In this document: one piece after another, positions 24,697 to 46,621 of the stretch
Position numbering within the stretch: the stretch's first letter is position 1
Layout: every line of letters starts with the position of its first letter
Source of the DNA: Craspedostauros australis
Taxonomy: Eukaryota
Direction: 5' to 3'
NCBI GenBank assembly: GCA_030167865.1
Contig: JALAGF010003917.1
Coordinates: forward strand, 1 to 61,270
Length of the DNA stretch: 61,270 nucleotides
Position numbers and translations under genes: made by a program
The notes under the pieces: model-generated
Databases searched by the model: none
Told to the model about the DNA's origin: nothing
What the model saw: only the letters and a program-made list of their open reading frames with translations

Positions 24697-26316
24697 ATGG
24701 CCTCTACATCCGTTGCTAAGGCTACCGGTGCCGCTGCGACCGCTTGTGAAAATGGTCACAACGCGCCAGCATCATCAACCTCGTCCGCCTCCTCCTTGCC
24801 AACCCAAGATATGCCAGTGCCCACCGCCGTCAGCCTCAACCTGGAAGCAAGTTCCGGTCTCGTCTCCAATCTGCTCACCGACAACGGCATCAGCATGAAC
24901 GTTAACGTGAACTCGAGCATGGACATGAACACTATTGGCGCCAACACTGACAACTCTGCCAACTCTGACACCAAAGAAGTTGGTCGCATCAAGCCCAAAC
25001 CGGTCTGTCAAGATGAGACCATGCGCCGCCGCTCCATGACCCAGGAGCAGCTGGTCAAGTACTGCTTCGCCATGGATTGCCCTCCACCATCAACGACGAC
25101 CACGGCTCTCGCAGCCGCGGCTACGGATGCGGCTTCAACCGTCGCCGCTCTCATCAGCAAGCCAAGCGACGCAGCACTCTCTGTGGCAATGGTATCCTCC
25201 AGCTCTTCCACAGCCTCCAACGCCAGCACCATCTCTTCCTTCGAATGCGATCATGCTGCTACGGGAGGAATCACTGGCACAACCGTGGCCACTGCCGTCA
25301 CCACAGCAGTCACCACAGCACCTGTGTCTGTGCCTCCTCCAGCCAAGGACTGCCCGGCCACTCCCGCGAGGCTGTCCAATCTGCAGTCGGAGCGCATCAA
25401 CCAGAAGGTCACCTCCCGCAAGGTATCTCGCAATGGCCGCAAGACGCAGAGGTGGCACACGGACGGACCCAACAACCGCGTGTGCCGCCTGGTCACGGGC
25501 TGCATTCCCATCCTGGAGAGCGGAAAGATCCTCTTCGTCTCGGCCTCCAGAAAGCCGGAGTGGATCCTCCCCAAGGGAGGCTGGGAGCAGGACGAGCTCA
25601 TGGAGGAGAGCGCCATCCGCGAATCCTTCGAGGAGGCCGGTGTCCTCGGAGTCCTAGGCCCAAGGCTCGCGCAGATCGACTACGAAACGCGCAAGAGCAA
25701 AAAGCGTCGCATGGAGTTCGAGCAGAAACAAAAGGAGCAGCAGAACAACAAGCAACAACGCCAAAAGACCAACGTCTGCGGCGATGCCGTTGCAGATGAC
25801 AACGCATCTCGCATTGGCAAGATCACCACGACTGCTCGTGCAACAGCAGTCAGCCCCATCCCAGAGATGACCCCCGCCACTATTTCCTGCGATATCGTGG
25901 CTGGAAATAGTCGTGCGGGAAGCGTGGCCACCACCCAGTCGCAACTGAACCATCACCAGCAACCAGACATGTGCGCCACGCCATCGTCGGCCTCTTACAC
26001 TTCCGTGCCAACGACCCCGTCCATCAAGAAGACGCTCTTCGACGACACCTTGTCGGTCTCATCGGAGACGTCCACCTATTCCCACGTGCGCATGACACTC
26101 TTCCCCCTCTACGTCTGCGAGGTCAAGAAGGAGTGGCCAGAGAGCGGCCGCTTCCGCACCGCCGTCGACATCGACGACGCCATCAAGATGTGCGAGAACC
26201 GTCCAGAGTTCCGCCAAGCCCTCATCGAGGTCAAGGACCGCAATCTACACATGCGTCAGGACAACGCCAACTCTGCCATCCCACAACCTTCCGCTCCTGT
26301 CGCGCAACAGATATGA
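24697..26316 (+). CDS. Nudix hydrolase, diphosphoinositol-polyphosphate phosphohydrolase (DIPP/Ddp1/Aps1)-like subfamily
   Basis: Nudix box WILPKGGWEQDELMEESAIRESFEEAGV, with upstream SRNGRKTQRW...RLVTGCIP and downstream FPLYV...WPESGRFR, typical of this subfamily. First in-frame ATG (gccATGg) at 24697. Confidence 0.85.
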   Translation: MASTSVAKATGAAATACENGHNAPASSTSSASSLPTQDMPVPTAVSLNLEASSGLVSNLLTDNGISMNVNVNSSMDMNTIGANTDNSANSDTKEVGRIKPKPVCQDETMRRRSMTQEQLVKYCFAMDCPPPSTTTTALAAAATDAASTVAALISKPSDAALSVAMVSSSSSTASNASTISSFECDHAATGGITGTTVATAVTTAVTTAPVSVPPPAKDCPATPARLSNLQSERINQKVTSRKVSRNGRKTQRWHTDGPNNRVCRLVTGCIPILESGKILFVSASRKPEWILPKGGWEQDELMEESAIRESFEEAGVLGVLGPRLAQIDYETRKSKKRRMEFEQKQKEQQNNKQQRQKTNVCGDAVADDNASRIGKITTTARATAVSPIPEMTPATISCDIVAGNSRAGSVATTQSQLNHHQQPDMCATPSSASYTSVPTTPSIKKTLFDDTLSVSSETSTYSHVRMTLFPLYVCEVKKEWPESGRFRTAVDIDDAIKMCENRPEFRQALIEVKDRNLHMRQDNANSAIPQPSAPVAQQI

Positions 26317-27262: not shown

Positions 27263-27980
27263 TCATGCGCCCGAGTTGCACAGATGGAATAGGAACCGGT
27301 TCTGCTGCGTGGCCGATGCCACGAACTCCTCTGCGGTTATTCGCTGCACCTGCTTGCTCAGCACGGTCCCGCTGTTGTTCATGGAACGCGACGGCCGGAT
27401 CATCCACTGAAATCGCAGCGCGTTGAGCCGCTCGATGCGCTCCGGTGTGATGGTGGACTTCTTGCCCTGCAGGAACAGCCGGTACTGCCGCCGCTGACCC
27501 TTCACCCAGATGCCCAGCGACGGGTTCGGCTGGTACACCGTCGGCACGTTCGTGTGCCCCGTCTCCTGGTGAAACACCAGCAGATCCGCCAGGCGGTTCT
27601 CCCACGCATCTTCGTGCGTGTCCCACACGAAACCCAGCCGCGTCAGCTTGTCCTGCCGTTCGTCAGTCAGCGTGGAATGCCGACCTTCCACCTTCTGCTT
27701 GTACTGGTACCTCTGGCGCTTCACCCAATGCGACAGCGCCTTCGAGTCCTTCGGTTCCACCAGGCAATGCCGATGGCGTGAATGGAACTGCACCAGCTGC
27801 TCGTACCGCTTGCCCCACTGGTCGGATTGGTACTTGCGGAATTTGATCGACGGAGCAGCTGTGGAGGATGCCGAAGCTGACAGCCGCGTTGCGGGCATGT
27901 GATCGTCGCCGAGCCATGCCGCGTTATTGGGAAAGTCCAGCTCGTCGGCATTTGCTACAGGAATGGTTTCTACGCACGCC

Positions 27981-28023
<43 letters not shown>

Positions 28024-29374
28024 TGATGTTGTTGGCAATGGTGCAGGCATTGATGAGTTCTTGCGTTCCGAGGATGGAGTGAATCAGGTTGTAATCGGGG
28101 GAGTTCATGGTTCCATCACGTTGGAGCTGCTGGGCCGTCGGTTGTGCGATCGGCTGGTGCTGATGTGCCTGTTGGCGATGCTGCGACTGCTGCCGCAGCT
28201 GCTCCTCCTGCTGATCAGATTGCTTCTGTGATGTTTGGAATTTCGGCAGTCCGTCTTGTGGCGGGTATTGATTTTGGTTCGCCTGAGGAATCTGACTGAA
28301 ATGCTCCTCGAACGCTCCAGAGCGAAGCACATCATGCAAGTTGTATGGTTTGGAGAGAATGGAGTCCATCGTGCTGTCCATGCCCTTCACGTTCCATGAT
28401 TTGGTCTGTTTGTGGCATCGCTGTAGCTCGAAGCTCTGCGCTGCTTCCTTCACTGTCATTCGGAGCGGAAAACACTCGTTTACGTCGGCGATAGCGTTGG
28501 CACTGGTATTGATATTGGTTGTTGCATTGGCGCCATTTCCGTTTCCCTTGTTGCTGATATTGTTGTTACAGTTGCGGTTGCTGCTGCTGGTGGCTGAGGC
28601 TGTGGCGGTGGTGGTGGTGGCGCTGGCGTCTATGGCCATGGCTGTGCCTGCATCTGCGCCCATGTTGGAGTGTGTGGTCCGACCATCGCAGTTGCGTTGG
28701 AATCTCCCGTTGTCCAGGGTATTGGCATTGCCAAGTGTGCGACTGTCGGAACTTCTCATCGATGATGCCATTGCCATCGAAAGGATGGACGTCCCGACCG
28801 TGTGTGTGGTCGACAATGGCGTCGGCATTGCTGCTGCCTTCGCTTCCATCAAGAGATGTGCGTGCCTGGCCTTCGGGTCCTCGTCGTGGGGATTTGGAAA
28901 GAGTGTGTGGAGGAAGTTTTCCATTTCGTCAGTTGCACCGAGCTTGTCGAAGGTTTCCGCCGGGTTGACTTTGTTGACAACAAAGATGGAGCTGCTTTGA
29001 ATTGGCGACGGCTCGAGGGCATTGTGATTGTGATTGAGGCTGTCATTGCAGTTGCGGCAGTGGTTGCGGCTGGTGTGATCCTTGGCACTCGCAGGATCTC
29101 TGGGAAAATTGCCTTGTGTGCTGTCGCTTGCCTCGAACAAGAGTTTCCCGTTCGCGTGCGGGTTCATGTTCATCATGTCGAGATTGCCGATGTCGTCGAT
29201 GGCAACAATGTCGCTAAAATCGTCGTCTCCGCCATCAGTGAAATCGTCCATGAGCACCCGGTCAAGTAAGGGGGACCATTCCATTGGGAGACGAGAGCCG
29301 CTGTCATCCCTGAGTGAATCGAAGGCGACGTTGGCTCCTGTGCCAAGGGGTTGGCCTGTGGCCATGCCTTTCAT
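27263..29374 (-). CDS. Protein with two C-terminal HA (helicase-associated) domains and a long low-complexity N-terminus; putative nucleic-acid binder
   Basis: QWGKRYEQLVQFHSRHRHCLV...LSHWVKRQRYQY...LTDERQDKLTRLGFVW and WENRLADLLVFHQETGHTNVP...LGIWVKGQRRQY...ITPERIERLNALRFQW. First in-frame ATG at 29374. Confidence 0.88.
27983..28024. repeat. (GTTGCC)n coding microsatellite, about 7 copies, encoding (GN)n
   Basis: Read directly; lies inside the 2-HA gene. Confidence 0.9.
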
Positions 29375-32300
29375 CTTCGTCTCCAACGTGTGTTTCGGCC
29401 TTCAGAATTGTTCCGTTGTTCTTTCTTTTCTTCCGAAGCTGTGTGCCCTTGGTGACCGTGCTACCACCTGTGCCGCTGTTCCGTTGGCTCTTCCTCCGTG
29501 TTGCCGATGATCAACCGCAGGGTTGCGATGGGCAGGGAGATGGATCGGCGGAGGGATGGGGCGATGGAGCGATGAATGTGTGGATGAATGGGCGAATAGT
29601 GTCGCTATGTCCGTGGATACCAGGGACGTGGGAGAACAGTGAACGGAGGTGGTGGACTTTGTGGGCAGAAGTGGCGGTAGCAGTAGGAGTAGCGCCAGCG
29701 TAAGCGCTTGGGGCTCTCGTGTGGTCGTCGTCTTCGATGTCCTTGTCGGTGGTGTTGCAAATTTGTGAGGTGAATGTGTTGGGCACTTAGCCACAAAGAG
29801 TTTCGCCTGCTGGAGACGGGATTGTCCTTGGGCATTTGCTGCTGGCTGTTTGAGCTGTACATGGCATTCCTCCGACAACCATACATATCAAAGCGTGTCT
29901 GATGTGACACGATTCATAAATGGGAGGAAAGAAGTTACTCCTAAAAACAGGATTGTCACAGACGTGCCCAGTGCCTCGATCGACAAGACAGAACAATAGT
30001 TGAGAAAGAGAAGGCAACGAAGCAAAGAACAGAGACAAGGGATGACAGGCGAACTGCATTCAACCTGGAGAATCCCACACACAAACACACGAAGTTCACA
30101 GAAATCCCTTCGTCCTCAACGTGTCGGAGGAATGACCACGCGGTGGGCCGGAGCCTCTCCTGCCTTCGTCACTCTGTCGGTTATCTGTTTTTGTTGTGCT
30201 GTGGGGAGTCCACTCTGCCGTACACTTATCCTTGCAGCTTCTGTTTGTTTTCATTTATTGTCCCGTGATGAGGCGAACATTCTTTTTGTTTCTTTTGTTC
30301 CCTTTCTGCTGTAAGAAATGTTGTTGAATGGTTGTTGCCATTCCTATCCCGGTCACTTGGGGAGACGACGCACTTCAAATGCTCCTCTTTGTGTTGTCTT
30401 CGTCATCATGGTTCTTCTGGTTGCAGTTGCGACTGTTGTTTGTCCTCATGCCATCGCCTTTCATGTGGTGTTGGCCAGTTGCGCGAGAGGCTGATTGAGC
30501 TCCTCGCCTCGCCACTACTGTGCATTCTGGGTATAGCAGAGTTAAGCTCTCTTGTAGCGCAACCGCCTTTTGTCCGTTTCTCATGCTGGATGATGCTGGG
30601 GATCTTCGGCGCTACAAATTGCACCAGCACATTGTGGGTACGGGTGTACAAGAGGAAACAAGAGTACGAGTGACGCACTCGAAAACAAGGGTCATGTTGG
30701 CCTTATCCATACATAGTAGTCGTATGTGTTGAAAACTTCTGCAAGGGAGGTATTCTATAATATAATAATAGATTGGATGATCACTGGCGATGTCAAGCGA
30801 CGCGCCAACGCTTCCATCCCACGTTAGATCTCGATGCAGATCAGTCCGGCAAAGCAAAATAGACACGAGAGGTAAGTATGTTCGATGCTTGATCCGCTTT
30901 GCTGCTGCGTCTCAAGACCGACATACGTACGCAATGCTGCGTTAACTCGTCTGGCAACCGCCTACGCCGAAGAAACATGGGATTCGAGGGTAACAATACG
31001 CCTCTTTCTCATCCACAGTTACATGCTAGTACGATGTACAATCGGCTTCGTCCTTGATCCATAGCCCCTCGTCAGAATTTCACGAGCCTGAACTTGATGA
31101 TAACAGGACGCCCCGGACCAGAATATCCGTGCGTCCCATACTCCTACCGCACCTACTCGTATTTGGACAATACATCATTTCGCAGAGAAGACATCCGGTA
31201 CGAGTTTCACCACTCAGGAATTAAGCAGGACACAAGTGCGGATAGCATTGGTACTGGAGTAATAATATTTACGAATACAATAGCAGCCAAAGGCGATGAA
31301 GAAGAACGTGAAGGGAAAGCTGAAGCGATCGGGCTTTGTTCGAAGGCTGAGTGGATGGAATGGAGTGTAGAGCAAATCACGATGAGATGCTCTTGATTCT
31401 TCTGGTTGATCGGAGTTTGTGCCACGCACCACTCGCAAACGAAAAAACACGAAGAGACACCGAAAGCATGACTCATCCAACAAGCGCATGCAGACTGTGT
31501 GCAATCGTGTGCTATGCGAGACTTGCACGTTACCCAAGGAGCACTACTTGGTATTCCGCAGGTGCGGTCCTTCATGGATAGTGGAGGATCAGCTCGGCAC
31601 CTCGGCACCTCATGCACTCTTTGATTGTTGGCGCCTTCGCTGGTGCCGTCGCAGCTTTGTGGAAGTTCTCGAACTTTTGCCTCCCCTGTCCTCCCGCGCT
31701 CTTTCTGACAGAAACCGCAGAGGGACAGAACGTTCGCACAACGACGATTCCGATACGCTCGGGTGGAACACATCGCTCTCCATCTGCTCCAGCTGCGCTT
31801 CGCGATGCGTTCATGAACTTGGATGTACGTGTACTCGTACATACACTGGCTGTGCCAGGACACAAGAAGGCAGCTCGTATACTCGCACATGCAGGCATAC
31901 ATGCATAGGAGGCTGGTTGGTTTCATGCCGAGATCAAACAAGATGTCTTCGCTCCCACACGCGTACGAGAGGTCAGTATGATCCACTTCATCGGAAGTCC
32001 ATGCCGCATCCTCCTCCACATCATCATCATGATAGCGCTCTTTGCTTCTCGGCGACAGGCACGACTAGTTTCAGTACACAAAGCACCAACGGCCAGCGCC
32101 AGCGCCTCTCCCTCTCTCTGGGGTCGCGTTCCACACTTGGTGTTGGGTAGAGGCACAGAATTCCACAATGTGGCAAGCATCGAAATGGTGCAGCCGTTCA
32201 AAGAACAGTGAGGGATCTCGAGTTTGTACACGAACACATTTGCGCTCTCATGTCGGTGGAAACGGTCGGAATAACTCACTTGTCTGTCCATTTCATTGCC

Positions 32301-33103
32301 GAATTGACATGTTTGATTGGTAGCGACGTGGAACATGATGAATGGCAAGGACATTCTCAAAACATCACCATCGTTCAAGCGGCAATGGCAATACCGCGAC
32401 TTGGCCTTCGTGCAACCAACAGTGTGTGGATGTTTGCAACAGTCGCGGGAATGTTCGGTACTAGCGAACATCACGCATTCTCTGTTCCTTCGTGGCGTTC
32501 GCCATCGTTCTTTGGGTTCGAGACGTGAACAAAAACGGACGATGAACAGACAATGAGAACTACAAAGAAGCGCCAACAACCACCCATCGTGATGTAAATT
32601 CGGGATCTCCGAGTTTGAGTTTGGTGATGTTGTGTCACTTCACGTGAGCAGGCAAAGAGCGAGAGAGATCTCCTTTCCTGTGATGTTGATGGGCAAGGAG
32701 ACGGAATAGGCAACAGGAACACCAGCCAGAGCAGCGGACAAACAAGAGCACACGTCAGATAGTAGACACACCCACGAGTAGTCGTACGAGTAGTACTCTG
32801 GTGGACCAGACGCGGAACGTCCAGACAGCAAGCAGCGGCACCAAGTGGCATCAATCGCATCTTCATTCGCATCTTCGAGCGGATCTTCGAGCGGATCTTC
32901 CAGTGCAGTTTCCAGCACACCTTTCGGTCCAACTTCACGTGTATCCAAGATCGCATCCAAGGTCGAGAGGCAAGGCCGAGAGGCAAGGAACGTGATAGCG
33001 TTTGCGTGACAGATCAAACACCGACGTACGCGGAGACAGAGTCACAGCGAACAAGAGGATCCCAGAGGGACAGAGAGGGATAGAAAGCCAGCGATCCATC
33101 ATC

Positions 33104-35155
33104 ATGGGAAAGTTCGCAGGCGGAAAGAAGGGTGGCTCTCGTGGCTCATCCTTCCAGAGCACCTCCAAGCACTCATCGCCGTACGCGCCTGCTGCCAACG
33201 TGCTCAACGAGATCTGGAGGACGTCCAAGGGGCTGAAGACCGTCACGTTCTCGCAGGACGGCCAGCTCAAGGTCTCCAAATCCACTTACGCGCAGTGCGC
33301 CAACGTTCTGAAGCACAAGTCCGTCCTGGACGAGGTGCTGTCGTCGTCCGCCGGGAACGGCGATGGCGATGGCAATGGCGCGCAGCCTATTGTCGAGGCG
33401 AGGAACGAAGGGTTGCTGTACGTTCTGCTCTACGAGCTGCTTCTGGGTCCCAACAAGGCAATCCGCGGAGGCGGATCTCTGAAGCGCAAGCTGATGCAGA
33501 AGGAGTCCGATCTTCGGGAGGCGCTGGAGCGGGCATCGCCGGCTTCCAATGGAATGCTGGCATCGGCAAAGACGATTCCGCGGTACGTTCGAGTCAATAC
33601 GCTGCGCACCACCACGCAGGCTGTCGTCGAGCAATTGCAGAAGGATCATCCGGATCTGATTCTGTTTGCAGATGCGCACATTCCAGATATGCTCGTGATG
33701 GAACCGTCGGCCAAAACAAGGGAGCTTTTGCAGGATCTGGTGACATCGCACGAGGTCGTGCTGCAGGACAAGAGCTCTTGCTTCTCGGCCTTGTGCATGG
33801 TACATGGCTTCGATGGCGATTCTGCCGACAAACATCTATCGCAGGTTGCCGCAGCAAACAAAGATGGGACTGTGAACTTCATCGATGCTTGCGCAGCACC
33901 TGGAAACAAGACCAGCCACCTGGCGGCGCTGTTGGACAAAGCGATCGCCAGCAACGGCAGCAATGCCAGCAACGGCAGCAATGCCAGCAATGGCAGCAAC
34001 GACAGCAATACACAATCGAAGAAGTCGTCACCATTCAAGAAGAGCAAGAAGAAAAGCAAGACGAGCAGACAACAGCAATCGGTGGCCGCGACTGTGCATG
34101 CCTTCGATCGATCCTCGTCTCGATTCGCGATGCTGTCGAGGCGGATGTCCGAACTGGTGCCATCGCAAGACTCATCGTCCCGTCCTGTCACCGTGCAGTG
34201 CCACGAAGCCGACTTTCTGGCATCTCCAATCTCAGCCGCCACGAAACAGCAGGCTGACGGCAGCCCCGACGAAATCTACGGCATCCTCCTCGATCCAAGC
34301 TGCTCCGGCAGCGGCATGGCGGCGCATCAGCACAACGCCAGCCACGATCCGACCTACACGGATGAACGTGTCCAGAGTCTGTCGAGGTTCCAATTCAAGG
34401 CATTGCAGCATGCCATGAGCATACCGTCGGTGCAGCGGATCGTGTATTCGACATGCTCGCTATATGTTGCGGAGAATGAGCAGGTGGTGTGCGACGCTTT
34501 GTACGGAGGTCAAACCGATGACGACGATGGCAACGATGTCAACCATAGCGATGATAGCGATAGAAGCAACAGCAGCAAATCGACCGAATGGCAGCTGGTG
34601 GCACCAAAGTGCTTGCAGCATTGGAAACGCCGTGGATTGTCATCCTTCGAGTCCAAGCATTCCCAACAGCTGAGCGAGAGCGATCTCAATGCGCTGATCC
34701 GTGTCAATCCTATCGAGGATGAAACCAATGGATTCTTCGTGGCATGCTTCGAACGCAAGTCGGCCTCCATGAAGCAGCAGCAGCAGCGGCGGCAAGTGGA
34801 ATGGAACGTGGAGGCCCTGGATGGTGTTGCCGTGTACAACAGCGAGTTCGTGCAGGACCCATTGCCACCGAAGAAAGAGAGCAACAAGAAGGCTACAGTG
34901 GCAACCAACACCAAGGCACAGGCACAGGCAAAGACTGCGTCGCCATCGCCAAGACAGAAGCAACATCAGAAGCAACACCAACACGATGGAGATACTTCCA
35001 ACGAGAAGGAAACGCCTACCAAACGAAAACGAGATGCGCCCAACAATGACAAGGTCATGTCCAAGAAACGCGCCAAGAAGCTGGAGTGGAAGAAGCGCCA
35101 GGCGGAGCAGAAACAGAAGCGACTATTGCAGAAGAAGAGCAAGGCGTCGGAATAA
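33104..35155 (+). CDS. NSUN5: Large-subunit rRNA cytosine-C5 methyltransferase, NSUN5/Rcm1 type
   Basis: Motifs IPRYVRVNTL, LQDKSSCFSA, IDACAAPGNKTSHLAA, ILLDPSCSGSG, IVYSTCS...ENEQVV and GFFVACFER, with both catalytic cysteines present. N-terminal VLLYELLLG and a Lys-rich tail. Confidence 0.9.
   Translation: MGKFAGGKKGGSRGSSFQSTSKHSSPYAPAANVLNEIWRTSKGLKTVTFSQDGQLKVSKSTYAQCANVLKHKSVLDEVLSSSAGNGDGDGNGAQPIVEARNEGLLYVLLYELLLGPNKAIRGGGSLKRKLMQKESDLREALERASPASNGMLASAKTIPRYVRVNTLRTTTQAVVEQLQKDHPDLILFADAHIPDMLVMEPSAKTRELLQDLVTSHEVVLQDKSSCFSALCMVHGFDGDSADKHLSQVAAANKDGTVNFIDACAAPGNKTSHLAALLDKAIASNGSNASNGSNASNGSNDSNTQSKKSSPFKKSKKKSKTSRQQQSVAATVHAFDRSSSRFAMLSRRMSELVPSQDSSSRPVTVQCHEADFLASPISAATKQQADGSPDEIYGILLDPSCSGSGMAAHQHNASHDPTYTDERVQSLSRFQFKALQHAMSIPSVQRIVYSTCSLYVAENEQVVCDALYGGQTDDDDGNDVNHSDDSDRSNSSKSTEWQLVAPKCLQHWKRRGLSSFESKHSQQLSESDLNALIRVNPIEDETNGFFVACFERKSASMKQQQQRRQVEWNVEALDGVAVYNSEFVQDPLPPKKESNKKATVATNTKAQAQAKTASPSPRQKQHQKQHQHDGDTSNEKETPTKRKRDAPNNDKVMSKKRAKKLEWKKRQAEQKQKRLLQKKSKASE
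33950..34003. repeat. 18-bp coding tandem repeat x3 (SNGSNA)
   Basis: agcaacggcagcaatgcc x2 plus one variant copy, inside NSUN5. Confidence 0.9.
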
Positions 35156-35271
35156 TGTTGCCACGAACATAGTAGTTGGAATCCAGTGGTAACGAGATTA
35201 ATCAGCCATTCTATTTCGTACCTGCACATCACAACAACAACTACAGAAGCAGCAACTGCCACCGCTGATAT

Positions 35272-37522
35272 TTACTTGAAATCCGCGCGCACCACGTTCT
35301 CCACATCTTCCCGGATGATGAGCTGCGGATCGAAGTCGATATCGTCGGCCATCTGAGCCGAACGCATGCGCTTGCGGACCTCCGTACGGCATCCGGTGAG
35401 GAGCATCTCGCTGATACGGCCATTGCGCTCGCTGCGCCACGACGGCGTCGTCTCATCCTCCATGAGACGCGCGATGAGCATGGGTGTGAGGTCGTCCGTG
35501 AGGTCGAAGCCCTTGGCGTTGGCGAGGTCGATGAAGATCTTGGAGAGCTCGAGGCAGGTGTAGTCGGGAAATTCGAAGTTGACCGGGAACCGTTTGCGCA
35601 GCTCGCCGTTGAAGACGAGGAAGGTCTGGATCTCGACGGGGAATCCCGCCAGGATGACGAGGGGGTGGTTGTCCTCGCCGTTCTTGGAGGCCGACTCGTC
35701 GATGCTGCGGATGATTTCCATGATGGCGTCCGTGCCTGTGTCGACGCGATTTCTCTTGGAGGCCATGCCAAGGGTGTAGGCCTCGTCGATGAAGAGGATG
35801 CCGCCGCGCGCCTCGTCAATGACCTCGCGCGTCTTCATGATGGTGGTCTGCTTATCTCTGGCCACCAGATCCATGCGCTCGACCTCGAGGAACTTTGGTT
35901 TCCGGAGCAGTCCGAGCTCGTGGTAGACCTTGGCGAGGAGGCGCGCCACCGCGGTCTTTCCAGAACCAGGGTTGCCGACGAAGACCATGTGATCGGCCTT
36001 GGGACGGCCGTTGTCCTCTGCCAGCGCCGGTGGGATGATGTTGAGCGGGTGGCTGCGACCGCGCGGTCCTGTCGGGGGGACGAGAGACTCCTTGAGGTCG
36101 CTGATCTCCGCCGTTCGGCGCAGTCCACGCACCTGCGACTTGATGTGATCGAGGCTGATGATGGAGGATAGGAGGTCCTCGACGCGATCCTTGGGCCCCG
36201 TCTGCATGCGGTCGTAGGAAGTGGCCATCGGTATGCCTCTGGAGTCTCTGGTGACGAGACGCGTGCGCTTCCGGATGGCGTCCATGAGGATGTTCTCGGC
36301 ATCCACCTGTCCCTTGCCACGGCCATCCTCGAGCTGGTCGGAGAAGGCGATCTCGAGCTCGTTGGGGTCCATGCCGGCCGAGTAGAGGGCGTGCGGGAAA
36401 CGATCCGCGAGCTTGCGCACGGCCGCGAGGGCCAGCTTGAGGTCCTTGTTCTTGGCACCTCCCGAGTTGCGCATGCCGCCCAATCTGCGCTCCAGGGCGT
36501 TGGCCTGCTCGTCGAACCTCTCCGCTTTCTGACGGCGCGTGAGCTCCGGCGGTGGCGGACGTCCCTCGAGCATGGCGACGACCTGCTCGTTTGGGTTTTC
36601 GCTGGCGACGATGAGGTCCAGCGGCGTCATGCCTTCATCGTTCTGGAGGTGGAGGGCATCTGGGTAGGCCTCGATGAGGAGGCGCACGACCTCTGGCTCC
36701 GCGCGCTTGGCGGCCGCCATGTGGAGGGGCAGGGATCCGTACTGGTTGCGCACGGTGGCACCTTCGGGATGGCGTCCCAGCAGGACCTCGACGGTCTCGA
36801 TGGGTGCCTCCCACATGGCCGCCTGATGGATGGGGAGGTTGCCCACTCCGTTTGGTTGCGATGCGCCGCCTGGGTATGCCTTCAGCAACGCCTCGATGAC
36901 ATCCGCGCTGGCCTGGAAACTGCAAGCCGCATGCAGCGGCAGGTTGCCTCGCTCATTGAGGCGTGAAGCTTCTTCCGGGAACGATGGTTGCTGTGATGCC
37001 AATGCCAATGTCAGTGTTCGAGTTGATATAGATAATGTCGTCGTTGTCGTCGTCGTCGTTGGTGGTGGTGTTAAGGATGATGGTGATGGTGAGGTTTGAG
37101 AATTGAAGACGGAAGTATTATATCACACGAAGAGTTGAAAATGTGAGGCCAGATGGGACGAAATGGAGAATGCGAATCGAGCACTCCATTGATACTTGCG
37201 AAGAATGACAACACTGCGCTCCGCCGTCCTCTCGAATGTGGTAGGTGGTAGAGTAGCATTAGTGCCGTGCCCTTCCTTCAGCATGAGAGAGGATCCAGCC
37301 ATCCATGCATCCATCCATGCATCCGTACTCATGGCATGGCCGAGCATATGCACCATAAAAGCACCGCACCCTGCAATTGCACCCGCAGCTGCATCCAGAG
37401 ATGATGCCAAAGATGATGATTGTAGATGATGATAATCTAGCAGTGTTGTTTTGACGTACCTTGCTGCGAGAGAGCAAGGCTCCGAATCCCTTGCAGAGAT
37501 CGTGAAGCTGCGTGTCGGACAT
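35272..37522 (-). CDS. Ankyrin-like repeat + CbxX/CfxQ/SpoVK-type AAA+ ATPase, paralogue A (catalytically intact), about 593 aa. Exons 37522-37460 and 36990-35272
   Basis: Four GxLPLH/TPLD ankyrin-like repeats; Walker A HMVFVGNPGSGKT, Walker B GGILFIDEAY, sensor 1 region VILAG, Arg finger LRKRF, FEFPDY and RNGR. Exon 1 (MSDTQLHDLCKGFGALLSRSK|GTACGT) splices in phase 0 to cacag|CAA and aligns without gaps to paralogue B. Confidence 0.9.
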
Positions 37523-38661
37523 GGTGACTGTCTTGTGCAGGGAACGTTTTGGTGCTGATAGCTGCTGTACTCAATGCTCGTGCAGCGTCGGCTCTCCAAT
37601 GTGGTTGGTTACAGTGGTCACAGTGGTTGCAGTCGATGCCTGGAGGGTCAACAAGGCTGCTTCGTCTTGCTGCCTTCTTGGCTTGTTAGCTTGTCAGGTT
37701 CTTGGCTTGTTGGTTTGCTTCTGTTGAAGGACAAGGTGGGATCAGTCTGGGATCAGTCTGGGAGCTGTTCCGAATAGAACGCGCAAGCCACAAAGGAAGG
37801 AGTTGACAATGATGATGCTCAACTCAACTGTACGGCAATACTCTGCCTGTTGAATCTCTCTTCGCTCCACCTTGCTCCACCCGCCAAGACAGACAACCAA
37901 GGGCAACGACCACAACAGAGACAGCAACAACCGAAGACCATGGCGAACGCGCCTGTCCCAACAAGACACCACAACACGCCGCGCCAAAAAAAGCCAACTC
38001 GTTGCAACTCGCACGATCCAGCGCGACAACGGGGAACTGCGCTGTTCGTCACGCATCTTCGGCCAGGAGGATCCGTTGAGTGGCGAAATCCTTCGATTTT
38101 TCGATTATTTGACTACTCAGACTCGGATTGATTAAGCGAGGCACATGCAACATAACGGTTCTGCAACCTGAATCGACAAAATAAATGGACTCAACAGAAG
38201 ACACGAGGTCACGAAAACAGGCGCAGACACAACCGCGGGCGTTACCGAAGAGGCAAGGGAGGAAAGAAACAAACAAACAAGCCAGCCAACCAAGCAACAA
38301 CAACGACCGCATCTTGTGCACGCTCCGAAGTTGCGCCATCGTTGGTGTCATCGCCATTGTCGTCGCTGCTGTCGGCATCTTTCAAGTCGCAAGATCAAGC
38401 ACCGCAACGGCAACGACAATAGAGCACCAACTCAACGGCAACAGATTGAAGCAAAGCAAAGTCATCTTGCTGACACTCCGCACACCATCTTGATCATCAC
38501 GAATCCGGGGCGAACATCGGACGAAGCCAAACGAAGTCGGAAGCAGATACTGTCGCATACCGCACGATACTGCACTACTATACGCTGCACGAATATCGCA
38601 CAGTCCGCACTGTATAGCACCAAGAGCACAGCAAGAAAAGGAAAGAAAGAAGAGGATGACA

Positions 38662-40838
38662 ATGGCAGCATCCGGAGAGTACACCGATCTGCATGAGGTC
38701 GCCAAAGGATGGAAGGCGGCCATTGCGAGGTCCACAGACCCAGCCACCAGGTATGTAAGATTCATTCCAATGATTGCTCAGCATGTCATACAATGCAATA
38801 TAATGCAATGCAATGGAATGAAGCAAGAAAGCAAGCAAGAATGGCGCCATGCAGGACACACGTCTCCTATCACTCATACGATAGCCTTGCATCCCGTCTC
38901 CCACCTCACCTGACCTTACTTGCTCTACCTTCTCCCCAACCTCATCAACACAACTTCCACTATCGCATACACCAATACACATCCATTGCAATCACTGCGA
39001 TCGCCGCAATCACGGTAATCACTCGACCTGTGTCCATTGGTGCACGACTACTTGCATGAACGCAACAATACCATCATGCGACACAATCATGCACTATCAC
39101 GAATCATACATCACATCATGTATCTTGTATTATATCGTATTGTATTACATCGTATCGTATTTATATATATGTATGTATGTATCATGCATGACACGGCAGG
39201 CATGAGGCACAGGTAAAGAACGACCGTGGAAACCTGCCATTGCACACGGCAGCATCCTTCCGCGCACCCCTCGAGGTCACGGAAGCGCTGCTGGAGGCAT
39301 ACCCGGAGGCTGCATCCATCACCAACAACTACGGAAACCTGGCGCTGCACTTCACTGCGTGGAAGAAGGGACCGCTCGATGTGGAGAAGCTGCTGCTCAA
39401 GGTCTTCCCAGAAGGAGCGGCGCAGAAAAACAACCACGGCAATCTGCCGCTGCACTACGCCGCGCACTACAACGCCCCCCTCGAAGTCGTCGAAGCGCTC
39501 TACAATGCTTACCCGGAAGGCGCCACGCAGAAGAACAACGACAACAACACCCCGCTCGATCTGGCCATCGCCGACGGCGCCTCCCCCAACGTCGTGGCCC
39601 TGCTGCAGGGCAAGTCCGTCCCACCCACCGACGACGAGATCCTGGCGGCCTCCCAGCGACGCTTCGAAGCGCTCGAGAAGGAGATGAAGAAGTACAACCA
39701 GCGCAATCAGGGCACCAGCGAGGAGATGGAGACCGTCCTCTCCGTCCTCATGGACATCAACGAGGGCCACCGTCACGCCCTCTACTCGGCCGGCATCATC
39801 CCGGAGAAGGCCACGGGCATCGAATCCATGCTGGATCAGGTGCGCAAGGCCGCTGCGGCCGACGTGGCTCCCTCCGTCATGGGCGAGGACACCTTCATGG
39901 GCCGCAACGACAACGAGGATGAGGCGCAGCTCATCGAGGACGCCCTCTGTCCGCCGGATGACGTCGTGGAGATCGCCCTCTCCAAGCTCGTCGGTCTCGA
40001 GTCGGTCAAGAACCAGGTGCGCGGGCTGCGACGCACCATCGAAATGAACGACCGCGACAAGCCGACGGTCCGCATCCCGCCCAACCACCTCGCGCTGCAG
40101 GGCAATCCGGGCACGGGCAAGACCACCGTCGCCAAGATCCTCTCGCAGGTCCTCTTCGAGATCGGCGCCGTCAAGAACCGAAACTTCGTCATCTGCGGGC
40201 GTGACGACCTCATCGATCGCAAGTCCGAGGTCCGCACCATCCAGAAGACGCGACGTGTCCTGGAGCGTGCCTCGGGAGGCGTCCTCATCCTCAAGGAGGC
40301 CTACACCCTCCTGCCATCCACGGCGCGTCCCAGGGGGAGAGACCACGGTGGCGCGGCACTGCGGGAGATCGCGCGCATCCTGCCCTCCGGTAACCCACTC
40401 GTCGTCCTTACAGGATCGCCGCTGGACCTGCAGCGGATCCTCTCCAGCGACATTGGCTTCAAGAACTTCTTCCTCACGCGCGTCGAATTCCCCGATCCCT
40501 CACCGGAACAGGTCGCGCGCATGTTCATGGGCAAGATGACGGAGAAGGGTTTGATCGCCGGCGACGGCGTCACGGTCGAGTACCTCGCGGAGCTCATCGC
40601 CACCAACACGGATGAAGACTGGCGGTTGGAGCGCAACGGCCGCGTCAGCGAGCTCCTCGTCTACGCCGTGCGGTCCGAATTGCGCCGCCGCATCAACTTT
40701 GACGATCAGGCCTCCAAGATGTCCGTCAGCCCCATCAAGCTCATGAGCGGGGGATCGGCGCGTATGCCGGCCTTTGCACCGGAGGAGGTCTTTGTCACCG
40801 TGGAAGATATCCAGAATGCCGTCGTCAACGGTCTTTAA
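38662..40838 (+). CDS. Ankyrin-like repeat + CbxX/CfxQ-type AAA+ protein, paralogue B (degenerate Walker B and Arg finger), about 575 aa. Exons 38662-38750 and 39200-40838
   Basis: Same architecture as A. Walker A GNPGTGKT is intact, Walker B reads GGVLILKEAY, and the Arg-finger region reads DIGFKNFF. Phase-2 intron AG|GTATGT...ggcag|G restores TRHEAQVKNDRGNLPLH. An alternative ATG lies at 38656. Confidence 0.9.
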
Positions 40839-41233
40839 CATTCCAACCAACGCAATCTCTGTTCGTATTGTAGGTAACTCGCTCAATCAAACAATCTCAC
40901 ATAGCCAATACTATCACATTGCAATGATCATGTTTGTTATTGTTGCTGTTTGGTGGCTTGGACTTGGAATCATGGCAGAGCGTTTGTGTGTCTGCCTCAA
41001 TGAGTTCATCTCCTCATGACCGAGAGGATCTTCATTGTGGTGTGTAGTGACGCACAAGGTCTACCAGAAGCTCTCTCCTCATTCCTCTCTAGCCCATGCA
41101 GAATAGATAATAATGATACAATCTCTATCGTTACATCTCCTCACCTTGCTTGCCAAGAAGAGCATGCCACTTTCACGCTAACGCTACTTCTAACGTCAAC
41201 ACCAACACCTCCAGACACTGGAAAAGACACCTC

Positions 41234-42733
41234 TCATGACAACTCTCCCTCGCCAGCTTCCGTCCTCCCTTCCAACACATTCTTCGTGGCCCGGAATATG
41301 GCAAAGGACAGCCCCGTCCCGATCATGTTCTTGAGCACGGCCGGAACGATCCCGCGATAGAAGGACGCGACGCCTTCGCGTTTGTAGATGGCGCGCGCGC
41401 AATCGACCATACCGACGTGAGGATGGGACGCGCTGCTGTGCAACGTGCTGGTGCCGAAGACTGCCTGGGCCTGCAACCGCTTCTTGACCGTGTCCATGGG
41501 ATAGACGACGATCTTGCTCGTGGCGCCGGCGATCGAACCCGCGTAACCCGACACGGAGACGGTCTTGTTATGATCCTGCCGCGTGAGGTACTCGTAGATG
41601 GAGAAGTTGAGACCCATGTAGGGGACGATCTGCAGCACGGCGGGCAGGCCACCTGCGTAGAAACCGCGCACGCCTTGGTTGCGGTAGATGTCGGCAGCGA
41701 ATCCCGCGATGGAGGTTGGCGGGCGTTGCAAGTGTGGTCTGGTCGCTTTTGGTGTTGCGGCGGGTATCGTGTCCGCAAGGCCTCTTGCCGCGAACGCGGT
41801 CCTGCACAGATCGAATGGATACGTGATGAGCGTCGCACAGGTTCCCGCCACAGCGCCCGATAGAAATGCGACCACCGTCTTTCGCTGTCCCAGATTGTGG
41901 ATTTCATTCTTTCCATCTTTACTGCTTGTGGTCGCATTTTCGGGTATGATGGCGGCCGTGATGATCTGCTGCAACCTGCCGTAGACTGCGAACTGGACCA
42001 TGGCGTATCCCGCCCAAAGGTAGGTGGCTGCGAGGTTGCCGCGGAACAGAGCGAAGATGCTGCCCTCCTTCTGCACGATCTCCTTGAGCTGTGACCAAAG
42101 CGAGAATGAAGATCGTAGCGGATACTCAACCGACGATGCTGTGCCGCCGATGCCCGAGCTAGCCGTTGGGGCGGATAGCTGCATCCTTATTCTGATCAAA
42201 TCCAATGGGGCCGTCGCCAATCGCGCTGTTGTTTGTGACATGTTCATCACCATCATGTTCCCCAGCATCGTTGGTGTTAAGATAGGTAGACAGTTATATG
42301 GATAGATAGTTAGATAGATAGAGACGGAGGAATTGTGTTGTCTTGCATTGCATTGCATGCATTGCAGCAAGAGCATGTGAGTTCCATGTACTCTGGAGAG
42401 AGCAGGGCACTTCATCCGAGCGGATGGGATGAATGACTCTGGCAACCAAGTGGAGCATGACAGAGCACAGTAGTGTCGAGCAACTCCGTTCATGCATTGC
42501 ATATAGCATGACAAGAGCTCCAGCAATGCACTTTGCTCCAAGAGCAACAGACGCGATATGAGTCTCCGTTGTAGCGCGCGCAGATGACACACACATCATA
42601 GACCTCTATGGAGCAGCGTGATTCGTAATATGGTATGATATGATATAACACCATACGAGCACATACCTCCAGCTCCCGCTGTGCCGCCTGCAAGTGCGTT
42701 GTGCCACCATGGATAATCGTCTTCGTTGGGCAT
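41234..42733 (-). CDS. Mitochondrial carrier family protein, probably a thiamine-pyrophosphate carrier (SLC25A19/Tpc1-like), about 352 aa. Exons 42733-42667 and 42225-41234
   Basis: Three Px[DE]xx[KR]x[KR]-type signatures (PLDLIRIR, degenerate PFDLCRTA, PMDTVKKR). FRGN...Y..VQF..Y, IVPYMGLNF and GSIAGATSK..YP resemble TPC carriers. A phase-1 intron joins LAGGTAGAG-A-RLATAP. Confidence 0.8.
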
Positions 42734-43719: not shown

Positions 43720-45114
43720 TCAGTAGGGACCCACGGACATCTTCTTGCGTTCCCTTCGATTCTTGCCGCCACCTCTTCGACCCACCACGGCGCTGCTCCT
43801 CCGAATTGACGACTGCAGTGGCACCGCGACGGTTCGGCTCGATTGCGGCAGGACGAGATTCCATTCGCATATCCGGGCGTCCTCCCCCGCCGTGACAAAG
43901 ACGCTGGGCGACACGAATGACCAGTCGCGCAGGATGCCGCGATGACCGCTGCGCAGGACGTTCTGTATCGCGATGCCGTGATCGTCGATCTTGAAGAGCT
44001 GCGTGTCGCCGCAGGAGCTGCCGCCGAGCAGGAACAGCTCCTGCTGCAGCACGTCCCAATGGCAGTTGACGAGGTAGTCGACGCGATCGCTTTCGGCGGC
44101 GCCAATCATGGCGGGCACATCCATCATGCCGCGATCGATGCCGGGTGTTTGGGTGGCCTGCGTGGTCAGGTGCGTCAGATGCTGGCGCAGGCCCGGGCCA
44201 AAGTCCTTCTGGCAGATGCTGTTGTCCATCTGCCACAGCTTGAGCGTCTCGCATCCCGTGAGCGTGTAGATGGCCGACGATTGCGGACCGAAGAAGCCGA
44301 GACGACGGATGGACGATTGAGTCGTGAGGACGTTCTGCAGCGCGGCCTCTTCCGTCGGATGCTTCGTGTCGAAGACGTTGACGAGACCGTCCTCCCCGCC
44401 GGATGCAAACACCGACGTCGTCGTCGTGGTCGTCCCGAAGGACGCCATCGTCTGGAACTCCACCTGCGTCACTTCATCCGTGTGCGCGTGCTGGTACGTT
44501 CCCAGCAACCCAGACGTGCCGCGGATGTCAAAGAAGTGCACGCGTGATTTGCTGCTGCCGACTGCGGCGATGGCGCCCTCAAATCCCAACGAAACGGACA
44601 GCGCAGCCTCACCAGCAAGCGGGAGCTTGAGTTGCATCTTGGGAGCAGATTCGCGGATGTCGTAGAGCGCGACGGTGCCATCGTTGGAGGCCGTGACGAG
44701 CACGTGAGGATTGGTGGTGGTGGGATCGCCCGTGAGTTCGTTGACGAAGCCGTGACTGCTGCCTCCTCCCTTGGTGACGATCTTCTGCTTGACATGCAGC
44801 CTCTCCTGATCGTAGATGTGAACCTCCCCGTTGCTGATTGCGCAGCCGATCCAGCCGTGCATCGCCTTCAAACTGAGGACCCAGTCGCCTTGATCATAGT
44901 AGTTGCAGTTCTCCTCCGCTCCATCTCCTGCATCTCCTCCATCCACTCCATCTCCTCCATCCACTCCATCTCCCATGCTGCTCTCCGAGGACGTCGTTGA
45001 CGCATTCGTCAAGGTGGATGCTGAGGCGTTGAAGCGCGAGGCCTTGACCTTCGGATTGAAGCTCGTGACAATCGTCCGGCTCGGTGTGATCTTTCCCTTG
45101 CTCAACATCGTCAT
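43720..45114 (-). CDS. WDR89: WD40-repeat protein, WDR89-like
   Basis: WD-like repeats ending in YD, FD and WN, plus family-like segments HTDEVTQVEF, SGGEDGLVNVFD...EEAAL and DYLVNC. Confidence 0.7.
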   Translation of the reverse strand: MTMLSKGKITPSRTIVTSFNPKVKASRFNASASTLTNASTTSSESSMGDGVDGGDGVDGGDAGDGAEENCNYYDQGDWVLSLKAMHGWIGCAISNGEVHIYDQERLHVKQKIVTKGGGSSHGFVNELTGDPTTTNPHVLVTASNDGTVALYDIRESAPKMQLKLPLAGEAALSVSLGFEGAIAAVGSSKSRVHFFDIRGTSGLLGTYQHAHTDEVTQVEFQTMASFGTTTTTTSVFASGGEDGLVNVFDTKHPTEEAALQNVLTTQSSIRRLGFFGPQSSAIYTLTGCETLKLWQMDNSICQKDFGPGLRQHLTHLTTQATQTPGIDRGMMDVPAMIGAAESDRVDYLVNCHWDVLQQELFLLGGSSCGDTQLFKIDDHGIAIQNVLRSGHRGILRDWSFVSPSVFVTAGEDARICEWNLVLPQSSRTVAVPLQSSIRRSSAVVGRRGGGKNRRERKKMSVGPY

Positions 45115-46621
45115 ACTTCCTCCTTCCTTCCTTTCTTCCTTCCTTCCTTCCTTTCTTTCCTCGTTCGTCAGCAAACAACGATGCACAAGAACTCGACTGA
45201 TACGCCCAACTCAATTCAACCCTTTTCGATGCAATGCAATCCAGTCCAATCCAATACAATGCAACACGACACAGCAGAATACAAGATGGAATACAAGAGA
45301 AGGAACGCAATGCAACGCAACGCAATTCAATTCAATTCAATTCAATGCAATGACAGGAGATGACACGAGATGGAGCGTCAAGAGGCGGTACTTGTTCCAC
45401 AGAAGAGCAATCCAATTCACCAACGAACACAATCAGCACGCGAAACACGTGCACAAACGAGTTGGTCGCGTTGGCGCGGCAATTTCAAATTCACTCTGTT
45501 GGCTGGTGGGACAGAGTGAGTCATGCATAACGGGCCAATGGGAAGCTTGTCCGTATCCTCTGTTTTGGTCTGGACTGCGTGCGGTATTCCATTTTTTGGC
45601 GACGTGTTTGAACGAAGGCGAAGTTGGGGCAAACTATCTCATGGAGTGCAGAGTCAAGACACAATCTCAGATTCCGTTGTTTGGCATCGATAGATCGCAG
45701 GGACGGAAGATGATGCGACGTTGCAGCTTGCAGATGTCCTTGGTGAATGCTTTGACAGAGGCATCGCTCTGTCTTTGGCGGAAGGCATCTTCCATAGAAG
45801 TTGGTCCAATGGCATTGCGATGCTGAATGAAACAGGATTCATAGTTCCGGCTTATATACTGCACGTATTCGACGAGAAAGTGACTCTGCGTCTACACCTG
45901 GAACGCTGATCCCAAGAGCATGATGCTCTGAACTCCATCCTCTGGCTCTATTCTACTCGAAGATGATTTGGTTTGTACAGGAATGAGGTTTACGCTGTTA
46001 TAAATGTGTTTACGGATTTGCGTTTGCATGTCACATTACATGCAGACCCTCATTCTGCGAGAAGTAAGTCAATGAGTTCACTTGGAAGAAAGTTCTGTGA
46101 ACCTCGAATGAGTCTTTCCCAAGGTTGCGGTGTTGTTGGCATAAATGCATGGTTGCGAATGTGTGGATGAAAGCACGTTTCTACTCGTGCTTGTGCATCT
46201 GTGCACATTCTCAGCCACTGTTGCACCTGCTGCGACGAGCATGCGAAGTCGTTGCGTGCCTGCCAGGTGTGTCGCGGAAGTTGTGGTTGAATGTTGGTTT
46301 GCCGGATGGTATCGTTGCTCTTCGGAACGCTGGTACTTGAATGCGCCGTATCATGTCACAATGCAGTTCATTGCATGACATAACGAACGCGGTCGCCCAT
46401 CTCTCCAAGTGACTTCCTCCTCAACAGGAAAGGAAGGGAATGCGAGATAGAGAGCAGAACACCATCCTGTGCTTCTTCGTGATGCTTCGCGCGCAAACTC
46501 ATCAGTGCGGACCGTGCGTCATCGCCGCCATCCAGCTGGATGGGTTGTGATCCAGTCAAGAAATATGAGGGAAAGCTACACGGCCACGCTGTGATGCGCA
46601 CAAGACACTGCGACAGCGAAC

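What the first reader, a model, noticed from the sequence alone, without database searches (positions are those of the whole stretch)
35272..40838. Head-to-head ankyrin-CbxX AAA+ pair: an intact ATPase and a probable pseudo-ATPase sharing one promoter region
Seen: two full-length paralogues are transcribed divergently, with start codons only about 1.1 kb apart (37522 and 38662). Their N-termini align without gaps (TQLHDLCKGFGALLSRSKQPSFPEEASRLNERGNLPLH vs TDLHEVAKGWKAAIARSTDPATRHEAQVKNDRGNLPLH), but they are otherwise well diverged, so the duplication is old and both frames have been kept. Neither has a signal or ASAFAP presequence, unlike the LHC gene in this window. Known: CbbX/CfxQ/SpoVK/EccA-family AAA+ proteins are ring-forming remodellers; red-algal CbbX works as a hetero-oligomer of two paralogues; an uncharacterised ANK+CbxX protein exists in plants (from memory, Arabidopsis At3g24530). 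Inference: a co-regulated, probably cytosolic two-subunit remodelling system in which ankyrin repeats select the substrate. It is probably not a Rubisco activase.
Basis: partly seen in the sequence, partly recalled or inferred. Interest (0 to 1): 0.8.

Follow-up and report, generated by a model that had tools for sequence, protein, structure and literature searches.

The report
Linked diatom ankyrin-ATPase gene pair
Two old sister genes sit back to back here and stay neighbours in distantly related diatoms; one encodes a complete ATP-driven motor and the other a decayed copy with a well-kept binding arm, which suggests an undescribed two-part machine whose target is unknown.

Summary
Observation confirmed. 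Two-exon genes A (minus, 593 aa) and B (plus, 575 aa) start 1,140 bp apart. Both encode ankyrin repeats, a helical linker and a CbbX/SpoVK/EccA-clade AAA+ domain (35% identical). They form separate clades that include pennate and centric diatoms. Both partners were found in 7 named genomes: consecutive gene IDs in 4 (including centric Skeletonema), two apart in 2, same contig only in 1. Orientation outside this window was not seen.
A keeps all four catalytic motifs in 91 of 120 orthologues, B in 7 of 120, while B's ankyrin arm is better conserved than A's.
Corrections: B's Walker B Asp-to-Lys change is lineage-specific (80 of 120 keep Asp); its general lesion is the arginine finger. The CbbX aromatic pore loop is missing (0 of 168 A, 1 of 120 B). 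A red-algal-type alternating 1:1 ring would have no complete canonical site here. Best reading: an A-rich motor with B as cap or adaptor, not a threading remodeller and not a Rubisco activase. Binding and co-expression are untested. No paper found; this scan reported the pair in three other genomes.

The parts
37460..37522 (-). Gene A exon 1 (21 codons; N-terminal helix)
   Evidence: orthologue N-termini
36991..37459 (-). Gene A intron, 469 nt, GT-AG, phase 0
35272..36990 (-). Gene A exon 2 to stop; full protein 593 aa
36568..36948 (-). A ankyrin repeats (about four)
   Evidence: Pfam; model
36196..36543 (-). A helical linker (long helical hairpin plus short helices; pLDDT about 45-65)
35275..36186 (-). 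A AAA+ module, CbbX/SpoVK/EccA clade: Walker A Lys 35956-35958, Walker B Asp-Glu 35782-35787, Arg-finger column 35590-35592, sensor 2 Arg 35416-35418 all intact; no aromatic pore loop
37523..38661 (.). Intergenic region, 1,139 nt; GC and AT skew both flip sign near 37750-37800, consistent with divergent transcription from there (inference); only low-complexity repeats
38662..38750 (+). Gene B exon 1 (89 nt)
38751..39199 (+). Gene B intron, 449 nt, GT-AG, phase 2; same position in 3 of 3 metagenome loci
39200..40838 (+). Gene B exon 2 to stop; full protein 575 aa
39228..39611 (+). B ankyrin repeats (about four), the best-conserved part of either protein
39630..39950 (+). B helical linker
39957..40835 (+). 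B decayed AAA+ module: Walker A intact (Lys 40119-40121), Walker B Asp replaced by Lys (40293-40295), Arg finger replaced by Phe (40467-40469), conserved Lys two residues before it (40461-40463), sensor 2 Arg kept; no aromatic pore loop
32999..35155 (+). Neighbour: open frame of an NSUN5-like RNA methyltransferase, convergent with A (116 nt between the stops)
41234..42271 (-). Neighbour: mitochondrial carrier, convergent with B

Best explanation
A and B are the two products of one duplication that predates the centric/pennate split. They have been kept side by side, probably under one bidirectional promoter, because they work together. SHOWN: the architecture, the two clades, the linkage, A's conserved catalytic motifs, B's repeatedly decayed ones, B's better-conserved ankyrin arm, and the loss of the aromatic pore loop in both. 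INFERRED: A oligomerises with itself to supply the ATPase, since only A-A contacts give complete canonical sites in nearly all species. B joins as a minority subunit. It can receive A's arginine finger but cannot donate one, so it would cap or gate an A spiral or ring, and its ankyrin groove would bind a conserved cytosolic or nuclear partner. ATP turnover would move the ankyrin arms through the helical linker (lever or switch action, as in pore-loop-independent AAA+ systems) rather than thread a polypeptide. The target is unknown.
For: Linkage: consecutive IDs in Mayamaea, a Bacillariaceae MAG, Skeletonema marinoi and Seminavis; two apart in both Cylindrotheca species; 16 exact contig-length matches among 87 A and 69 B records against 0.21 expected, including contigs of only 5,421, 7,765 and 7,829 bp. 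All four motifs intact in 91 of 120 A and 7 of 120 B; cis site intact in 117 of 120 A and 43 of 120 B. Walker B Asp changes state 7 times on the B tree and 0 times on A; Walker A Thr/Ser 10 versus 0; sensor 2 13 versus 1. In 10 of 10 matched taxa, B's ankyrin region is closer to the window's B than A's is to A (87-94% versus 72-80%), and B's AAA core is further. Complete composite sites in 17 matched pairs: A+A 16, B site with A finger 9, A site with B finger 1. Both genes have transcriptome-labelled orthologues (10 of 120 and 11 of 120 listed hits).
Against: No test of co-expression or localisation. Conserved linkage can come from a bidirectional promoter alone. Orientation outside the window was not seen. 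The Discostella tags are 21 apart on one contig. The composite-site logic depends on which Arg is the finger: the basic residue two places before it is Arg in 120 of 120 A and Lys or Arg in 120 of 120 B, better conserved than the canonical column (Arg in only 91 of 120 A), so it may have taken over the role and restored mixed sites. 43 of 120 B keep an intact cis site. The hit sets are the best 120 per search, rich in near relatives and unnamed environmental sequences, so the counts are not independent.
Confidence: 0.5

Rival explanations
1. A and B act separately. A is a homo-oligomeric ATPase, B is a stand-alone ankyrin scaffold or nucleotide-binding switch, and the linkage persists only because they share regulatory DNA.
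For: A has everything needed for A-A sites in 16 of 17 pairs. B's AAA core is relaxed while its ankyrin arm is constrained. The A and B linkers are only 24% identical.
Against: B has kept the whole AAA+ fold (Z 20.4, rmsd 4.8, 257 aligned to CbbX 3syk) with a conserved basic residue and sensor-2 region, which fits retention of ring interfaces. The A-B linkage is kept while B's downstream neighbour changes (CDC45 in L005; one case).
Confidence: 0.27
2. Strict 1:1 alternating hetero-hexamer like the red-algal nuclear/plastid CbbX, with A's sites active and B's silent.
For: Same AAA+ clade; the CmRca 1:1 hetero-hexamer precedent (PMC5385338, passages). B's invariant Lys/Arg two residues before the finger column might act in trans.
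Against: A site plus B finger is complete in 1 of 17 pairs, and neither mixed site is complete in this species. This is the reverse of the proposed torsinA-LAP1/LULL1 logic, where the degenerate partner supplies the arginine (10.1101/2021.12.09.472013, passages).
Confidence: 0.13
3. Sensor/executor pair in the manner of head-to-head plant NLR pairs (recalled): B's ankyrin arm guards or senses a target and releases A.
For: Head-to-head layout with one intact and one decayed P-loop protein. Many long proteins with tandem CbbX-like domains are among the distant hits; conflict-system roles for such proteins are recalled, not tested.
Against: One A and one B in the genome search (4 matches in all) and 88% mean ankyrin identity across B are unlike fast-evolving immune receptors. 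No effector domain was found by Pfam. The fold match is CbbX, and the STAND-type Pfam hits are below cut-off.
Confidence: 0.06
4. Extra Rubisco activase subunits or other plastid chaperones.
For: The best structural match is CbbX; CbbX is second to EccA1 among solved sequences.
Against: TIGR02880 scores 108 and 84 against a cut-off of 459. No Tyr-Ile-Gly pore loop, which CbbX needs. No presequence in 139 of 139 orthologues. Two canonical CbbX-type genes are in the same assembly and branch apart.
Confidence: 0.03

Closest known systems
CbbX, red-type Rubisco activase (R. sphaeroides 3SYK/3ZUH; C. merolae nuclear + plastid hetero-hexamer)
   Same: AAA+ clade and fold; two paralogues as a possible unit.
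   Different: N-terminal ankyrin arm and helical linker; no aromatic pore loop; no plastid targeting seen; both genes nuclear and adjacent; far below the family cut-off; a long separate branch.
EccA (type VII secretion) and SpoVK
   Same: Same clade; EccA1 is the best solved-sequence hit; EccA also has an N-terminal repeat domain before the AAA+ (recalled).
   Different: Scores 121/84 and 152/93 against cut-offs of 467 and 423; ankyrin instead of TPR (TPR recalled); eukaryotic; EccA1 keeps an aromatic pore-loop residue.
Plant ankyrin + AAA protein
   Same: Streptophyte clusters with Ank + AAA score 0.97 and 0.96 by features; At3g24530 is listed as AAA-type ATPase family in a table (PMC12595034).
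   Different: Shorter (407-433 aa representatives). No plant sequence was in hand, so orthology versus an independent fusion was not tested. No linked decayed partner is known to me (recall only).
Skd3 / human CLPB
   Same: Four ankyrin repeats joined to one AAA+ domain; the ankyrin domain is needed for activity (PMC7343390, passages).
   Different: HCLR-clade NBD, mitochondrial, and it needs its GYVG pore-loop Tyr for disaggregation, which A and B lack.
TorsinA with LAP1/LULL1
   Same: A pore-loop-less AAA+ paired with a degenerate AAA+ partner.
   Different: Reverse logic: LAP1/LULL1 supply the arginine finger, whereas B has lost it. Unrelated clade and compartment.

Membership tests
CbbX/SpoVK/EccA AAA+ clade (broad) | Sequence and fold closest to this clade | tested here: met
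   NCBIfam top three hits are SpoVK, EccA and CbbX; Foldseek ranks 1-4 are CbbX; VIA Z 20.4 for B
CbbX Rubisco activase | TIGR02880 curated cut-off 459.25 | tested here: not met
   A 108, B 84.4
CbbX Rubisco activase | Tyr-Ile-Gly pore loop | tested here: not met
   Aromatic residue in the loop window in 0 of 168 A and 1 of 120 B; present in L003 and L004; requirement from PMC5385338
CbbX Rubisco activase | Plastid-encoded or plastid-targeted | tested here: not met
   Intron-containing nuclear genes; no hydrophobic or ASAF-like N-terminus in 139 of 139 orthologues (heuristic only, no positive control)
CbbX Rubisco activase | RuBP regulation and Rubisco reactivation | not testable with these tools
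   needs biochemistry
SpoVK / EccA equivalogs | TIGR02881 422.95 / TIGR03922 466.65 cut-offs | tested here: not met
   A 152/121, B 93/84
Skd3/CLPB | Ankyrin repeats fused to one AAA+ domain | tested here: met
Skd3/CLPB | HCLR-clade NBD with GYVG pore loop | tested here: not met
   definition
Plant ankyrin-CbxX (At3g24530 type) | Orthology on a tree | not tested
   no plant sequence was retrieved; only Atlas feature scores
Catalytically competent AAA+ (gene A) | Walker A, Walker B, arginine finger, sensor 2 | tested here: met
   all intact in the window; 91 of 120 orthologues; activity itself not measured
Pseudo-ATPase (gene B) | Loss of catalytic residues with the fold kept | tested here: met
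   Window B lacks Walker B Asp and the finger Arg; 113 of 120 orthologues lack at least one of four motifs, but 43 of 120 keep the cis site
Hetero-oligomeric AAA+ pair | Physical A-B complex | not testable with these tools
   needs co-IP, native MS or cryo-EM

The most novel reading that the evidence does not exclude
Diatoms have an obligate cytosolic or nuclear two-gene AAA+ machine of a type not described. A pore-loop-less motor (A) builds an open spiral, and a finger-less paralogue (B) terminates it and presents a near-invariant ankyrin groove to one conserved diatom target. ATP then drives lever-like release or loading rather than threading, in a core diatom process. A single-copy A/B intermediate (P0444) would represent the pre-duplication state.
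Probability: 0.25. Interest if true: 0.75.

Novelty: new variant of a known kind. Interest (0 to 1): 0.52.

Why it matters
Gene order is poorly kept between centric and pennate diatoms (recalled; two searches for a citable statement gave none). A paralogue pair that stays adjacent from Skeletonema to raphid pennates is therefore likely under joint control. The pair is a compact, knock-out-ready case of how an enzyme and its pseudo-enzyme copy divide labour. It also gives a clear prediction on ring composition. B's ankyrin arm is an obvious bait to find a conserved diatom target. Database labels such as 'sporulation protein K-like' and 'EccA3' for these proteins are misleading.

Tried and rejected
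Complex prediction of A (exon-2 residues 140-572) with B (135-545), ankyrin arms left out for size: no answer, score 0.00 in 2 of 2 runs, alignments not used, controls not folded. This is no evidence either way.

The look-up of sequencing runs: no RNA holder listed on record; one run guessed as RNA, share 0.16. Laid on 33000-42500 it gave 6 contig pieces at 99%+ identity. One covers 34649-35782 (3' ends of the methyltransferase and A) and one covers 40462-40908 (3' end of B); none spans an intron or the intergenic region. Nothing is concluded on expression.

DNA for synteny: the metagenome scan gave 3 loci with B, none holding A; all three start within 240 bp upstream of B. Viral contigs gave 0, genome contigs gave 4 bacterial AAA-only matches, and phages gave 11 records matching only the AAA part. 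Orientation in other species could therefore not be read.

The 8,277-bp contig-length match (P0070/P0397) is treated as probable chance because the two proteins belong to different lineages.

Co-expression data: the two Seminavis IDs were absent from supplements of PMC12618581 (3 files), PMC6688387 (12 files) and PMC8027222 (9 files). In PMC7335047 they have no piN/piS values, A is listed as 'Dispensable' and B as 'Core', and that file was cut when stored. No diatom gene IDs were found in PMC8119650 supplements. bioRxiv supplements were not consulted.

Paper searches for a prior description: CbbX + ankyrin 0; sporulation protein K + diatom 1, not on this pair; ankyrin/AAA+/diatom/SpoVK, at least 3 of 4 terms, 7 listings, of which one was read (a COG table) and the others were judged off-topic from the listing; CbbX + R194A 0; At3g24530 5 listings, 3 read as single passages. 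Loganathan 2016 is not held. Subscription journals are largely not covered.

The HMMER search of 50% representatives was dominated by multi-AAA and ankyrin-repeat proteins and names no taxa. The careful IQ-TREE run did not finish, so the quick tree is reported. The consensus print crashed after the numbers quoted had been printed.
Full report
1. The observation. The window carries two divergent two-exon genes. A runs 37522-37460 and 36990-35272 on the minus strand (593 aa); B runs 38662-38750 and 39200-40838 on the plus strand (575 aa). Several other splice combinations also give open frames. The chosen ones match the N-termini of orthologues, including a 575-aa protein 94% identical to B, and B's intron lies at the same codon in 3 of 3 metagenome loci. 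One member of that nearest cluster is labelled Stauroneis constricta by its source, and the trees place the window among raphid pennate diatoms. The exon-2 products are 35% identical. Pfam finds ankyrin repeats and an AAA domain in both. AlphaFold2 gives about four ankyrin repeats, a helical linker (low confidence in A) and a full AAA+ module; mean pLDDT is 79.7 and 85.1, and pTM 0.54 and 0.57, so domain orientation is not fixed. GC and AT skew both change sign near 37750-37800, which fits divergent transcription from there, but this is inference.

2. Family. The closest models are SpoVK, EccA and CbbX, all far below their cut-offs. Solved-sequence hits are EccA1 and CbbX; fold hits are CbbX. 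The assembly gave 4 matches to A's AAA domain: A, B and two canonical CbbX-type frames with the Tyr pore loop. On a quick IQ-TREE of 86 AAA domains, all 30 A and B rows lie on one side of a long branch (SH-aLRT 100), apart from CbbX, bacterial and multi-AAA domains. B has a long stem (0.83) and A a short one (0.21), and the unnamed P0444 falls unresolved between them. No plant sequence was included. A full-length FastTree of 242 rows separates A and B cleanly, and both contain Ditylum. Thalassiosirales have both. The duplication therefore predates the centric/pennate split. I saw no named hit that is clearly non-diatom: the Kryptoperidinium and Alexandrium labels nest among diatoms and probably reflect an endosymbiont or contamination (inference). 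The lists are capped at 120 rows, so the range outside diatoms is open.

3. Linkage. Both partners were seen in 7 named genomes. IDs are consecutive in 4: Mayamaea MPSEU_000250500/250400, Bacillariaceae MAG SGBAC_004237/004236, Skeletonema marinoi scaffold5057 models 14/15, and Seminavis Sro1015_g231570/g231580, where A is identified only by its InterPro description. They are two apart in C. fusiformis (scaffold858 models 26/24) and C. closterium (CAJ1942144/CAJ1942142). In Discostella they share a 236,964-bp contig but the tags are 21 apart, so adjacency is not shown. In about 14 further named genomes only one partner appeared in the capped lists, which is uninformative. Among 87 A and 69 B records with a contig of 4.5 kb or more, 16 lengths match exactly against 0.21 expected. 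Four of these are named cases above, one is probably chance, and two groups of three are near relatives. Contigs of 5,421, 7,765 and 7,829 bp force close proximity. Strand was not seen outside the window. In Seminavis, A has the lower number next to a forward-strand B, and L005 has no A in 3.2 kb downstream of B; both fit A lying 5' of B. Three earlier AI notes of this scan report a head-to-head pair in other genomes. I could not check their DNA and do not count them as support.

4. Catalytic anatomy. In the 120 best hits for each gene: Walker A Lys 120 versus 114; Thr/Ser 120 versus 105; Walker B Asp 120 versus 80; Glu 120 versus 116; canonical arginine-finger column 91 versus 10; sensor 2 Arg 117 versus 74. 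All four motifs are intact in 91 A and 7 B, and the cis site in 117 A and 43 B. The window's Walker B Lys is thus a lineage trait (2 of 120), and seven different residues replace the Asp. Parsimony needs 7 changes on the B tree and 0 on A. The finger column is assigned by alignment to CbbX, where both canonical CbbX frames of this genome keep Arg; its identity as Arg194 of R. sphaeroides CbbX is recalled. The residue two places earlier is basic in every A and B and may have taken over the role. Constraint is split by domain: mean pairwise identity in the ankyrin region is 83% in A and 88% in B, and in the AAA core 71% and 61%; the pattern holds in 10 of 10 matched taxa. Neither subfamily has the aromatic pore loop (0 of 168 A, 1 of 120 B). 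That loop is required for CbbX remodelling (PMC5385338, passages) and for Skd3 disaggregation (PMC7343390, passages), whereas CbbQ-type activases work without it through an adaptor. These sets are enriched in relatives of the queries and are not independent samples.

5. Mechanism. In AAA+ rings each site is completed by the neighbour's arginine finger (established knowledge). For 17 matched A/B pairs, complete canonical sites are: A with A 16, B's site with A's finger 9, A's site with B's finger 1. In this species neither mixed site is complete. A strictly alternating 1:1 ring, as in red-algal CbbX, would be silent here, yet A's own site is under strict constraint. The simplest reading is that A-A contacts carry the hydrolysis, and that B, able to receive but not donate, caps or gates an A-rich assembly while its ankyrin arm binds a conserved partner (0.5). 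The rivals are independent action with shared regulation (0.27), an alternating ring rescued by B's conserved Lys (0.13), a sensor/executor pair (0.06) and a plastid activase (0.03). Location is probably cytosol or nucleus, from a heuristic screen of 139 N-termini without a positive control. The target, the complex and the co-regulation are all inferred.

6. Known or new. It works like an enzyme/pseudo-enzyme AAA+ pair and belongs to the broad CbbX/SpoVK/EccA clade, but it is not a member of CbbX, SpoVK, EccA or Skd3 by the tests above. Searches of the held library found no paper on it. [quoted passage not shown] For At3g24530 I saw three single passages: an AP-MS table entry, a seed-expression table, and a label as the cfq mutant. 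From recall, cfq is an ATP-synthase gamma allele, so that label may be a mix-up with the CbxX/CfqX domain name. Papers were seen as listings, passages or supplement rows only; none was read whole.

7. Verdict. The pair is real, old, linked and apparently undescribed in print, with a clear division of constraint and a testable prediction on ring composition. Its mechanism class has precedents, and no function or partner has been shown. Interest 0.52; new variant of a known kind.

Noticed in passing
window 32999-35155; Seminavis Sro1015_g231560: An NSUN5-like methyltransferase flanks A's 3' end here, and in Seminavis a SAM-dependent methyltransferase is numbered next to A; possibly a three-gene microsynteny, identity not confirmed.
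   Followed up: partly
window 14799-22358 and 27263-29401: Cluster of five helicase-associated (HA, PF03457) domain ORFs on the minus strand, four of them in tandem.
   Followed up: no
L005 2460-4928 (minus): A CDC45 gene lies convergent with a B orthologue, where the window has a mitochondrial carrier.
   Followed up: partly
P0444 (unnamed, 545 aa): Ankyrin-AAA protein about 49% identical to A, placed between A and B, with Lys at the minus-2 position like B and Arg at the finger like A; a candidate pre-duplication form or an outgroup lineage.
   Followed up: partly
window 35272-35280 (A C-terminus): A orthologues end in a nearly invariant tripeptide (DFK 116, EFK 37, DLK 11 of 168) and B mostly in NGM/NGL/NGI (87 of 120); a possible docking tail.
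   Followed up: no
L003 and L004 (G000 C5790, C4074): Two canonical CbbX-type frames, probably the plastid and nuclear copies (inferred), are both in the assembly.
   Followed up: partly
window 34649-35782: One contig of run X1 spans the 3' ends of the methyltransferase and of A, whose stops are only 116 nt apart; overlapping 3' UTRs are possible, but the run may be DNA.
   Followed up: no
window 53938-55032, 24250-26316, 43720-45210, 57587-58963: Other neighbours: a cyclin, a NUDIX protein, a WD40 protein and an ARM-repeat protein.
   Followed up: no
ESM Atlas ranks 5-6: Two clusters of about 525-aa AAA proteins with Ank_4 in 37-41% of members and almost no taxonomy (phylum known for 2, commonest Uroviricota); a lead for ankyrin-AAA relatives outside diatoms and plants.
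   Followed up: no
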